64,000 nt of DNA from a virus. The position numbers were made by a program, and so were the translations under genes. Below are positions 9,846-60,527 of this stretch, one piece after another (the stretch's first letter is position 1; each line of letters opens with the position of its first letter). The stretch is taken from IMG/VR virus record IMGVR_UViG_3300023174_000094, positions 32,001 through 96,000 of that record. The stretch is one strand, 5' to 3'. The notes below the pieces were generated by a model. It saw only the letters and a program-made list of their open reading frames with translations, had not been told where the DNA came from and did not search any database.

Positions 9846-9888
9846 AACCCCTTGATGACTGTGGTATCATAGTTAATCAAGGGGTTTT
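9846..9888 (+). terminator. Intrinsic terminator-like hairpin containing an extended -10 element
   Basis: aaccccttgat/atcaaggggtt stem followed by T residues; TGGTATCAT at 9862-9870 inside. Confidence 0.65.
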
Positions 9889-9918
9889 CCCTATTTTAAA
9901 TTACAAGGATGGTATTAA

Positions 9919-57830: not shown

Positions 57831-58265
57831 ATGGGAAATAGGAAAGTAATATGTGCTGGATGTAGTCAATTATATCCAGCGGAAACAACAGATTTTTATC
57901 GTAATAAAAGATGTTGTGGATTAGACAGTTGCCGTGAGGTAATTGATAATAAAATCAAGCATTATAACTATCAAAAACAGCGTAGGAAATATGAGAATGG
58001 AACACATCGGAGAGGTGTTGAACCTTTTATTCGTAAATTGATTCTTGATAGAGATCGGAATTCATGTCTGCTCTGTTTTAACAATACAGGTCGGTTAGAA
58101 GTTCATCATATTGTTCCAGTTTCAAAGCAGGGAACAGATGAAGCAACTAATTTGATTTCATTATGTCATAAGTGCCATACAACTGTTCACCAAGAAGGAG
58201 ATGAAAAATATGTGGAAGAGTTCAAAGATTACACAACGCTTTGGGAAAAAGTCAGCGCAAGCTGA
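57831..58265 (+). CDS. HNH endonuclease
   Basis: RD...CLLC...LEVHHIVP...G.D...NLISLCHKCH. Confidence 0.85.
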   Translation: MGNRKVICAGCSQLYPAETTDFYRNKRCCGLDSCREVIDNKIKHYNYQKQRRKYENGTHRRGVEPFIRKLILDRDRNSCLLCFNNTGRLEVHHIVPVSKQGTDEATNLISLCHKCHTTVHQEGDEKYVEEFKDYTTLWEKVSAS

Positions 58266-59042: not shown

Positions 59043-59579
59043 ATGAAGACAAAAAGTTCTTTAATAAGTGTAATTATAAGTATATATATAGGAATTGTAG
59101 GCACAATAGCTTATGCTTCTAGTAATGATATGAATATTGTTAATGCAAATTCGTATTCAGTTGCTATTGATATAGCTGAGATTAATACTCAGCCAATGGC
59201 TATTGATAAACCTGAGTGGTTAGATCATAGAGTTCCTGACGATAAGAGTAAGCGTTGTCCTCAGTTCAATTCTAAATTTAAACAATATGGATTGCCTGTA
59301 CAAGTATTTTCATATATCGCTTGGAGAGAAAGTGGTTGTAATCCAAAAGCAATAAATGCAAAATTTGATTCAAATGGAAAGGTCATTTGGACATTAAATA
59401 AGAATGGATCAATTGATAGAGGTTTGTTACAAATCAATAGTGCATGGCAAACAGTAACTAAAAATGTTTGCGGTACGGATTTGAATGGTCTATTGGAATT
59501 AGATTGCAACTTAAGTGTTGCAAAATATATCATGGACAATTCAAAAGGTAAGCTATTGAATTGGAAAATATCTAACTAG
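59043..59579 (+). CDS. Secreted/anchored lytic transglycosylase (SLT, lysozyme-like fold)
   Basis: N-terminal hydrophobic signal; IAWRESGC.P.A.N, DRGLLQIN, terminal W. Confidence 0.8.
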   Translation: MKTKSSLISVIISIYIGIVGTIAYASSNDMNIVNANSYSVAIDIAEINTQPMAIDKPEWLDHRVPDDKSKRCPQFNSKFKQYGLPVQVFSYIAWRESGCNPKAINAKFDSNGKVIWTLNKNGSIDRGLLQINSAWQTVTKNVCGTDLNGLLELDCNLSVAKYIMDNSKGKLLNWKISN

Positions 59580-59645
59580 CACCGCATACTCAATTTAGCT
59601 AATAGATTGAATAAAATAACGCTGGTGCTTTATTGAATAAAAGAT

Positions 59646-59819
59646 TTGGTATTAGAAACAGAATAGTAACTCTAGTGGGAACGGGGTTACTATTCTGGTA
59701 TAACCTTTGTATAGGGTTGTATTCTAATACCAATTTTTTAATATCAGGAAATACTGTTCTTTTTGGTCATTGTAATAGTATGTATAATCCTCATATCTGA
59801 TTATACTCTGGTATTAAAA
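59646..59819 (+). ncRNA. Candidate structured RNA: two tandem three-way junctions
   Basis: Helices traced by hand; identical junction geometry; G-U pairs favour the + strand. Confidence 0.55.
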
Positions 59820-59893
59820 GCAGGTTTGGTTAAAGCCTGGAAAAAACTATTTGTCTGACATATGCAAAAGCCGAGTTTAACCAATATGTTTAT

Positions 59894-59966
59894 GTATCCG
59901 TAGCTCAATGGATAGAGCAAAACACTTCTAATGTTTAGGTTATAGGTTCAAATCCTATCGGATACG
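59894..59966 (+). tRNA. tRNA-Arg(UCU)
   Basis: GTATCCG/CGGATAC acceptor, GCTC/GAGC D-stem, AAACA-CTTCTAA-TGTTT anticodon arm, ATAGG-TTCAAAT-CCTAT T-arm; CCA not encoded. Confidence 0.93.
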
Positions 59967-59968
59967 CT

Positions 59969-60103
59969 AAGAGTTAGGCTAAGCCCACCCTTTCGGGTTT
60001 AAGAGAAATATGCATTTGTTTATAGCTATGTTCTATAGAAAATGTTAAATGTGAAGCATGTTGTTCATTAAGCTTTGCAAATGTTTCTTGCCTAACTCTT
60101 TTT
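59969..60103 (+). ncRNA. Candidate multibranch structured RNA directly 3' of the tRNA
   Basis: aagagttaggc/gcctaactctt closing stem, internal stems, ends in T-run. Confidence 0.5.
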
Positions 60104-60140
60104 GTCATATATAAGCACAAATATAAGGAGCATCATAAAG

Positions 60141-60527
60141 ATGAAATCAATATTAATAAAAGAAAATAGTGAAATAGAAATGCTTTATAATAATAAGAAA
60201 ATGACACTTGAAGAACTGCAAAAACAAGTGGGTGGTTATATTGAATGGGTTACGATTGATGCTAAGAATAGCACTGGCTATTATGTTAACGAAGAGGGGA
60301 AATTTAATAAGGGAATGAATGAACTTGCTAGTAAATGGTGGTATTGGAATATTCTTAAAGAAAGAGATACCCTGAAAGGCTTTAATGACTTTATTTCAGG
60401 TGATGTTATTTATATGAGAACAGATGATGAAGGAGAGCAATGTTCACTAACTGATGATGAAATTCTTGATTTTGAAGCATTTGTAACAGCATATAGAATC
60501 CTTACACAGAAAGATGAGAATAAATAA
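60141..60527 (+). CDS. DUF3846-like protein
   Basis: TLEELQKQVGGYIE.V, VNEEGK, N..A, I.GDV. Confidence 0.75.
   Translation: MKSILIKENSEIEMLYNNKKMTLEELQKQVGGYIEWVTIDAKNSTGYYVNEEGKFNKGMNELASKWWYWNILKERDTLKGFNDFISGDVIYMRTDDEGEQCSLTDDEILDFEAFVTAYRILTQKDENK

What the first reader, a model, noticed from the sequence alone, without database searches (positions are those of the whole stretch)
59646..59819. Two tandem, covarying copies of an unrecognised three-way-junction RNA motif
Seen: copy 1 = P1 ttggtattaga(59646-56)/tctaataccaa(59723-33), AA, P2 cagaatagtaac/gttactattctg, P3 gtataacctt/agggttgtat. Copy 2 = P1 ttttaatatcagg(59736-48)/tctggtattaaaa(59807-19), AA, P2 atactgtt/aatagtat, P3 gtataatc/gattatac. 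Most helix sequence differs between the copies. Both keep the same junction (2-nt AA between P1 and P2, 0 nt at the other two links), a P3 opening GTATAA and a P1 3' strand starting TCT. Conserved structure with divergent sequence and G-U pairs is what a functional RNA looks like. Inference: a repeated protein- or ligand-binding module (sponge/decoy, processing signal, or part of a large phage ncRNA). I do not recognise it as a named family.
Basis: partly seen in the sequence, partly recalled or inferred. Interest (0 to 1): 0.8.

Follow-up and report, generated by a model that had tools for sequence, protein, structure and literature searches.

The report
Paired structured RNAs beside phage tRNA
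Two related, Y-shaped RNA folds sit just upstream of an arginine tRNA gene in a freshwater phage; the folds are real and kept by selection, belong to no named RNA family, occur only in one small phage group, and their function is unknown.

Summary
Both fold far better than shuffled sequence (z -8.9 and -3.9) and better than their reverse complements.

The copies are sequence paralogs, not merely look-alike folds. About half the aligned columns are invariant. Ten of 28 pairs show compensatory changes across 11 distinct variants.

Rfam and ARAGORN recognise only the tRNA-Arg(UCU) gene 75 nt downstream. Every copy recovered from viral and metagenome collections lies upstream of that tRNA, on its strand. 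No copy lies elsewhere in six genome records (four rated 100% complete) or in 185,579 bacterial and archaeal species genomes.

Complete relatives carry both copies, copy 1 only, copy 2 only, or none. The modules are therefore accessory and probably redundant.

They belong to a roughly 520-nt island of self-closed RNA units tiled around the tRNA. A more widely conserved 138-nt multibranch RNA starts 1 nt after the tRNA.

The closest parallel is phage T4, where the stable RNAs RNAD and RNAC follow tRNA-Arg(UCU). There is no homology to them.

My best reading is small structured RNAs co-transcribed with, and cut out alongside, the tRNA. Function and transcription are not shown. The scan noted the same array in another genome.

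The parts
59043..59579 (+). Upstream gene: 178-aa protein with an SLT lytic-transglycosylase domain. It was used to fetch the related loci.
   Evidence: ORF. Pfam SLT PF01464, E 3.7e-07. Relatives at 54-90% identity.
59646..59733 (+). Copy 1 three-way-junction RNA module (88 nt): P1 of 11 bp, unpaired AA, P2 of 12-15 bp with a loop containing UGGG, and P3 of 10 bp with a 5-nt loop.
   Evidence: Fold with z -8.9. CM R1 scores 77 bits on + against 18 bits on -. Compensatory changes.
59736..59819 (+). Copy 2 three-way-junction RNA module (84 nt): P1 of 13 bp, unpaired AA, P2 of 8 bp with a 15-nt loop containing UGG, and P3 of 8 bp with a 9-nt loop.
   Evidence: Fold with z -3.9. CM R1 scores 98 bits on + against 24 bits on -. 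P1 pair 9 occurs as U-G, U-A and C-G among relatives.
59821..59839 (+). Small 7-bp hairpin. Together with the roughly 54-nt spacer up to the tRNA, it is inherited as one block with copy 2.
   Evidence: Fold. Block behaviour comes from the BLAST matches of L002, L009 and L008.
59894..59967 (+). tRNA-Arg, anticodon UCU, with no encoded CCA.
   Evidence: ARAGORN. Rfam tRNA 74.2 bits.
59968..60105 (+). Downstream multibranch RNA ('module 3'). It starts 1 nt after the tRNA, has an 11-bp closing stem followed by a U-run, and is conserved in all relatives.
   Evidence: Fold with z -5.6. 43 pairs, 18 of them with compensatory changes. CM R2 gives 138 bits and a single copy. Present in relatives that lack the three-way junctions.
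60141..60527 (+). Downstream gene encoding a DUF3846 protein. It follows module 3 in all relatives.
   Evidence: Pfam PF12957, E 1.7e-12. Relatives.

Best explanation
Copies 1 and 2 are diverged tandem duplicates of one small structured RNA that folds as a three-way junction.

They lie on the coding strand between a lytic-transglycosylase gene and a phage tRNA-Arg(UCU) gene. They are most likely transcribed with both as one precursor.

The island is a tiling of self-closed units separated by 0-2 nt at the tight joints: copy 1, copy 2, a hairpin, the tRNA and module 3. This is how phage tRNA clusters are built. I infer that the units are cut apart by the host enzymes that mature the tRNA: RNase P at the tRNA 5' end, and RNase E or similar in the AU-rich linkers.

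Each three-way junction would then survive as a discrete RNA of about 85 nt. Its flush closing stem of 11-13 bp would protect it from exonucleases.

Selection keeps all three helices, the purine-purine junction, the sequence next to the junction (AGR ... GUAUA ... UAY-UCU) and a UGG in the P2 loop. That pattern fits a defined three-dimensional shape recognised by a protein. One copy appears to be enough.

Shown: the fold, the strand, selection on the pairs, paralogy, strict linkage to the tRNA, and dispensability.
Inferred: co-transcription, processing into stable units, and protein binding.
For: - Fold statistics and strand asymmetry.
- On 11 distinct variants, 97% of cells are paired, against at most 52% when partners are slid. 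Ten of 28 pairs change on both sides. The covariation score exceeds all 500 shuffles.
- Intermediates pass through G-U on the + strand. Examples are the P3 pair A-U / G-U / G-C and the P1 pair U-G / U-A / C-G. These would be A-C mismatches on the other strand.
- The CM scores 75-99 bits on + and 18-38 bits on -.
- All 20 strong hits lie upstream of tRNA-Arg(UCU) in its orientation wherever the locus reaches the tRNA.
- There is no second site in G000 or in five further related records.
- No sigma-70-like promoter or intrinsic terminator was found between the SLT gene and the tRNA.
- In L008, copy 1 ends 5 nt before the tRNA. In L010 and L016 an ORF abuts the tRNA. The tRNA must therefore be read through from upstream.
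- Every relative with an SLT protein at 86% identity or more keeps at least one copy.
- Precedent: T4 tRNA-Arg is followed 1 nt later by rnaD and then rnaC. These stable RNAs come from the tRNA region and have unknown roles (PMC3014915; PMC9697503).
Against: - There is no direct evidence of transcription or of discrete RNA ends. The only RNA-library data are short contigs of relatives, which may be DNA carry-over.
- The modules are absent from complete relatives (G003; also L011 and L016). Any function is therefore non-essential.
- Effective sequence diversity is low: 11 variants falling into two paralog groups. Most double changes trace to one duplication event.
- The two copies differ in their P3 loops and in most of the P2 loop. 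One relative (L100) has a largely replaced P3. Both facts weaken the idea of a single shared protein-binding surface.
Confidence: 0.5

Rival explanations
1. The modules work purely in cis. They would be stable folds that cap the 3' end of the SLT mRNA after RNase P cuts at the tRNA. They could also act as folding insulators that keep leader sequence from mispairing with the tRNA. In this reading there is no trans-acting role.
For: - They sit between an ORF stop codon and the tRNA.
- Copy number varies and other hairpins are swapped in at the same place (L003 and L007 have an extra long hairpin).
- They are dispensable.
Against: - A simple hairpin would suffice for either job. Yet two paralogs that differ at roughly half of their aligned columns (42 invariant columns) keep the same three helices, the same junction, an identical P3 span of 25 nt and conserved sequence next to the junction.
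- Relatives whose ORF abuts the tRNA need no such cap (L010 and L016).
Confidence: 0.27
2. The modules are tRNA-related. They would be either decayed tRNA gene copies or armless tRNA mimics that act as decoys for a tRNA-binding enzyme or an anticodon nuclease.
For: - Each unit is tRNA-sized, has a closing stem followed by two purines, and has a P2 loop containing GG, as a D-loop does.
- They sit next to a tRNA.
- The 3' strand of copy 1's P1 shares UUCUAAU with the tRNA's anticodon loop (sequence).
Against: - ARAGORN calls only the true tRNA.
- The Rfam tRNA model gives no hit on either copy even at E up to 10.
- P1 is 11-13 bp rather than 7 bp.
- There are only two arms and no T-loop motif.
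- The P3 loops do not fit an anticodon loop.
Confidence: 0.08
3. The element works at the DNA level. The inverted repeats would serve as a miniature mobile element, a recombination site, or a single-strand initiation signal rather than as RNA.
For: - P1 looks like terminal inverted repeats of 11-13 bp.
- The modules are gained or lost as clean blocks among close relatives.
- An HNH endonuclease gene lies 1.4 kb upstream.
Against: - The modules are never found at any other site, in six genome records or in any collection searched. They are therefore not dispersed.
- Pairs are maintained through G-U, which reads A-C on the other strand.
- Fold energy and CM score are strongly asymmetric between strands.
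- Cumulative GC skew does not turn here.
Confidence: 0.05
4. The two copies form a tandem ligand-binding aptamer pair, that is, a riboswitch.
For: Tandem three-way-junction aptamers are known, as in the glycine riboswitch (my own knowledge).
Against: - No Rfam riboswitch hit.
- Only two unpaired junction nucleotides are available, which leaves little from which to build a ligand pocket.
- No expression platform is present, and the next gene downstream is a tRNA.
- Single-copy and zero-copy relatives exist.
Confidence: 0.03

Closest known systems
Phage T4 small stable RNAs RNAD (species 2) and RNAC (species 1)
   Same: - Two tandem structured RNAs of about 120-140 nt lie next to a phage tRNA-Arg(UCU) gene on the same strand.
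- Units are tiled with 1-6 nt between them.
- They are transcribed from the tRNA region, and their role is still unknown (PMC3014915, PMC9697503).
   Different: - The T4 RNAs lie downstream of the tRNA. Here the three-way junctions lie upstream, and module 3 takes the downstream place.
- There is no sequence or structure homology. CMs R1 and R2 find nothing in the T4 region.
- RNAC carries a tRNA-like T-arm. The three-way junctions do not.
phi29-family packaging RNA (pRNA)
   Same: It is a phage-encoded RNA built around a three-way junction, with a closing helix formed by the 5' and 3' ends and two loop-bearing arms (my own knowledge).
   Different: - No match to any Rfam family.
- The genome is 107 kb, not a 20-kb phi29-like phage.
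- The modules are only about 85 nt.
- I saw no convincing loop-loop complementarity between copies when I inspected the loops by eye.
- The modules are dispensable in complete relatives.
Candidate structured RNAs mined from IMG/VR (PMC10690425)
   Same: They are the same kind of object: covariation-supported intergenic folds in uncultivated phages, some of them overlapping or resembling tRNAs.
   Different: I could not check whether this motif is among the 8,495 IMG/VR candidates. None of those has a name in Rfam that matches here.

Membership tests
Any Rfam 15 family | Covariance-model score at or near the family's gathering threshold | tested here: not met
   cmscan of 59300-60300 at E up to 10. 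Only tRNA passes. Hits overlapping the copies score 14-26 bits against thresholds of 47-144.
tRNA or tRNA-like | Cloverleaf detected by ARAGORN or by Rfam RF00005 | tested here: not met
   ARAGORN finds one gene in the window, at 59894-59967. RF00005 hits only that gene.
T4 RNAC/RNAD | Sequence and structure homology to the T4 RNAs | tested here: not met
   In the 10-kb T4 locus L078, R1's only hit (12.6 bits, E 1.1) lies at 9874-9906, nearly 5 kb from rnaC/rnaD, and R2 finds nothing at E up to 1. The folds differ.
T4 RNAC/RNAD | Adjacent to tRNA-Arg(UCU), same strand, units tiled within a few nt | tested here: met
   Here the copies lie on the 5' side of the tRNA, and module 3 lies on the 3' side.
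T4 RNAC/RNAD | Accumulates as a discrete stable RNA during infection | not testable with these tools
   Only contigs from RNA libraries were available. They show no ends and no levels.
Dispersed repeat (REP or MITE-like) | Many copies at unrelated sites in a genome | tested here: not met
   CM R1 finds no extra site in G000 or in five related records, three of them rated 100% complete. All collection hits are at the tRNA-Arg locus.
Hammerhead or other small self-cleaving ribozymes | Conserved unpaired catalytic core at the junction | tested here: not met
   The junction has only two unpaired purines. No Rfam ribozyme hit.
Three-way-junction riboswitch aptamers | Match to a known aptamer model, plus an expression platform before an ORF | tested here: not met
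   No Rfam hit. Downstream lie a hairpin, a spacer and a tRNA.

The most novel reading that the evidence does not exclude
The three-way junctions could be dedicated partners of the neighbouring tRNA-Arg(UCU).

- In every variant of both copies, the invariant top three pairs of P1 are 5'-AGR-3' paired with 5'-UCU-3'. That is an arginine codon paired with this tRNA's anticodon sequence.
- The AGR is followed by unpaired purines, like the codon plus purine of a T-box specifier.
- Copy 1 also carries a 7-nt complement of the tRNA's anticodon loop.
- Opening P1 would expose a codon mimic able to pair with the tRNA. That could give an RNA that senses, sequesters or chaperones the phage tRNA, or shields it from an anticodon nuclease.
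Probability: 0.05. Interest if true: 0.8.

Novelty: new variant of a known kind. Interest (0 to 1): 0.4.

Why it matters
Phage tRNA regions have been known for some fifty years to carry small stable RNAs whose roles are still unknown. T4 RNAC and RNAD are the standard example.

This island shows the same layout in an unrelated freshwater phage lineage. A tRNA-Arg(UCU) is tiled on both sides by self-closed structured RNAs.

Natural variants carry both upstream modules, one, or none. That gives a ready-made deletion series for asking what such RNAs do.

The value is limited. The family is confined to roughly 20 records of one uncultivated clade. No host is known. Thousands of comparable candidate motifs already exist in viral metagenomes.

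Tried and rejected
- **Published phage genomes.** BLAST of the island and of 9 kb around it against 50,697 records found no match.
- **Copy 1 P2 loop, 14-nt pattern, IMG/VR.** 40 hits. Only the known relatives were real. The rest matched 14-26 nt by chance.
- **Looser P3/P1 patterns.**
  - IMG/VR gave one more close relative (L090) plus chance hits. L079, L084 and L088 score 17-19 bits, have broken P3 pairs and no tRNA nearby.
  - JGI metagenomes gave only close relatives, all at tRNA-Arg.
  - GTDB genomes gave one chance hit in a Flavobacterium MAG, with no P2 and no tRNA.
- **Module 3 pattern, IMG/VR.** One further relative, L100.
- **RNA-library runs.** X17-X20 hold short contigs of relatives at 85-95% identity. 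These bridge SLT to copy 1, copy 1 to copy 2, and spacer to tRNA to module 3. They are contigs, may be DNA carry-over, and show no ends, so they give no verdict on transcription.
- **Replication origin.** Cumulative GC skew does not turn at the island.
- **Promoter or terminator inside the island.** None by the simple scans. I found no repeat of the motif that follows module 3.
- **Flanks of the genome's other tRNA (Asn).** No comparable self-closed modules.
- **Loop-loop pseudoknots.** I looked by eye, within and between copies, and found nothing beyond 3-5 pairs that include G-U.
- **Small ORFs across the copies (55 aa on +, 44 aa on -).** Rejected, because the single-copy relatives break them.
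- **Paper on 10,006 viral candidate RNAs.** It does not let me tell whether this motif is included.

Full report

The window is part of a 106.6-kb IMG/VR phage record (G000:C1:32001-96000). That record is 38% G+C. Near-identical DNA occurs in lake and freshwater metagenomes from many studies.

RNAfold returns both three-way junctions as the minimum-energy and centroid structures.

| Unit | + strand energy (kcal/mol) | Shuffles (mean +/- sd) | z | Shuffles as good | Reverse complement (kcal/mol) |
|---|---|---|---|---|---|
| Copy 1 | -42.3 | -17.2 +/- 2.8 | -8.9 | 0 of 200 | -27.9 |
| Copy 2 | -19.9 | -10.1 +/- 2.5 | -3.9 | 0 of 200 | -11.4 |

Both modules persist when the whole 314-nt spacer is folded at once.

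**2. Are the two copies independent solutions or paralogs?**

MAFFT aligns them with 42 invariant columns and no gaps in P1 or P3. They are diverged tandem duplicates.

The differences between them are largely compensatory. Three P1 pairs, three P2 pairs and one P3 pair change on both sides.

**3. Relatives**

I used the upstream gene, an SLT-domain lytic transglycosylase, as a handle. It recovered 34 viral loci. In ten of them a tRNA-Arg(UCU) lies downstream of the SLT gene (L002-L011), and an eleventh (L016) has a tRNA-Arg(UCU) in the same place without the modules.

The content of the spacer varies among these relatives:

| Loci | Spacer content |
|---|---|
| L003-L007 | both copies, about 95% identical to the window |
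| L008 | copy 1 only, ending 5 nt before the tRNA |
| L002, L009 | copy 2 only, with one or two ORFs inserted upstream |
| L010, L011, L016 | neither copy |

Pattern scans of IMG/VR, JGI metagenomes and GTDB genomes added only further close relatives, all at the same locus. The remaining hits were chance matches.

A covariance model (R1) finds no other site in the window's genome, in 32 related loci or in five further related records. Among the complete genomes, G001 has copy 1 only, G002 has copy 2 only and G003 has none.

**4. Selection on the structure**

On 11 distinct variants, 97.4% of cells form standard pairs. That drops to 34-52% when partners are slid by 1-3 columns. Ten of 28 pairs show changes on both sides. 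The covariation score of 0.395 exceeds all 500 column shuffles.

Recent substitutions among close relatives pass through G-U on the + strand:
- P3 pair 6 is A-U, G-U or G-C.
- P1 pair 9 of copy 2 is U-G, U-A or C-G.

The model scores 75-99 bits on + and 18-38 bits on -. This is an RNA-level constraint on the strand that also carries the flanking genes and the tRNA.

One caveat applies. The variants fall into two paralog groups, so most double changes reflect one old duplication.

**5. What it is not**

- Rfam 15 at E up to 10 gives only the tRNA.
- ARAGORN gives only the tRNA.
- The junction has two unpaired purines and no ribozyme-like core.
- There is no expression platform and no ORF downstream, so a riboswitch is unlikely.
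- It is not a dispersed repeat, because it occurs at a single locus everywhere.
- Cumulative GC skew does not turn here.
- The ORFs that cross the copies are broken in the single-copy relatives.

**6. The wider island**

The tRNA-Arg(UCU) at 59894-59967 has no encoded CCA. It is followed 1 nt later by a 138-nt multibranch RNA at 59968-60105 (z -5.6). That RNA is present in every relative, including those without the three-way junctions.

Its alignment has 43 pairs, 18 of them with compensatory changes, plus long invariant single-stranded blocks. It is single-copy. It has an 11-bp closing stem, extended to about 30 bp in L002, L009 and L100. The stem is followed by a U-run and then a DUF3846 gene. 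It has no Rfam match.

L003 and L007 have yet another long hairpin before copy 1. The region is therefore a tiling of self-closed RNA units around one tRNA, with 0-2 nt between units at the tight joints. Other first-stage notes on this genome, and on another genome, describe the same array.

**7. Closest known**

In T4, tRNA-Arg is followed 1 nt later by rnaD (119 nt) and then rnaC (139 nt). These are small RNAs from the tRNA region whose roles remain unknown (PMC3014915). They were reconfirmed by RNA-seq and Northern blot (PMC9697503).

The layout is the same in kind. But R1 and R2 find nothing in the T4 region. T4 RNAC carries a T-arm-like hairpin that the modules here lack. This is an analogy, not membership.

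**8. Mechanism**

No promoter or terminator was detected between the SLT gene and the tRNA. In several relatives an ORF or copy 1 abuts the tRNA. The modules are therefore most likely part of one transcript: SLT, copy 1, copy 2, tRNA, module 3.

I infer that tRNA maturation enzymes cut this transcript at the unit borders. The three-way junctions would survive as stable small RNAs with flush closing stems.

Two paralogs that differ at roughly half of their aligned columns keep all of the following:
- three helices
- a purine-purine junction
- an identical 25-nt P3 span
- conserved sequence next to the junction
- a UGG in the P2 loop

That favours a recognised shape (confidence about 0.5) over a mere exonuclease block or folding insulator (about 0.27).

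Every relative with an SLT protein at 86% identity or more keeps at least one copy, which suggests redundancy. More distant relatives have none, so the function is accessory.

**9. A post hoc oddity**

The invariant top of P1 in both copies is AGR paired with UCU. This is the codon and anticodon of the neighbouring tRNA. It is followed by unpaired purines. Copy 1 also shares UUCUAAU with the tRNA's anticodon loop. It may be chance. I list it as the most novel reading not excluded, with probability about 0.05.

**10. Verdict**

This is a real, selected and unnamed structured-RNA module, present as two paralogs. It is tied to a phage tRNA-Arg(UCU) and is part of a larger RNA island. Neither its function nor its transcription has been shown. 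It is narrow in distribution and dispensable. Interest is moderate (0.4).

Noticed in passing
window 59968-60105 (+): A 138-nt multibranch RNA starts 1 nt after tRNA-Arg and has 43 pairs, 18 of them with compensatory changes. It has long invariant single-stranded blocks such as GGCUAAG, CCUUUC and AAAUAUGC. It is conserved in all relatives, including those without the three-way junctions, is single-copy and has no Rfam match. It is better conserved than the finding itself.
   Followed up: partly
window 59654-59658, 59723-59729 and tRNA anticodon loop 59925-59933: The invariant top of P1 in both copies is AGR paired with UCU, the Arg codon and this tRNA's anticodon, followed by unpaired AA. The 3' strand of copy 1's P1 shares the 7-mer UUCUAAU with the anticodon loop of the tRNA. 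This is a post hoc observation.
   Followed up: no
L002, L003, L009, L010, L016, L100, between the SLT gene and the tRNA: Relatives carry an inserted ORF of about 156 aa (phrog_38862, unknown function) that is absent from the window. L002, L009 and L100 carry a second small ORF as well. The spacer is a hotspot for block insertion and deletion.
   Followed up: partly
L003:4060-4118 and L007:3599-3657: An extra long hairpin unit of about 59 nt sits immediately upstream of copy 1 in some relatives. It is missing from the window.
   Followed up: no
L100:4867-4947: A copy 2 variant has junction AG instead of AA. Its P3 is largely replaced but can still form a 6-bp hairpin that starts GUAU and ends AUAC.
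   Followed up: partly
L002:4437-4601, L009:4505-4660, L100:5125-5287: In these relatives the closing stem of module 3 is extended to about 30 perfectly paired bp. That is long enough to be an RNase III substrate.
   Followed up: no
window 57831-58265 (+): An HNH endonuclease gene lies 1.4 kb upstream of the island, among small ORFs of unknown function.
   Followed up: no
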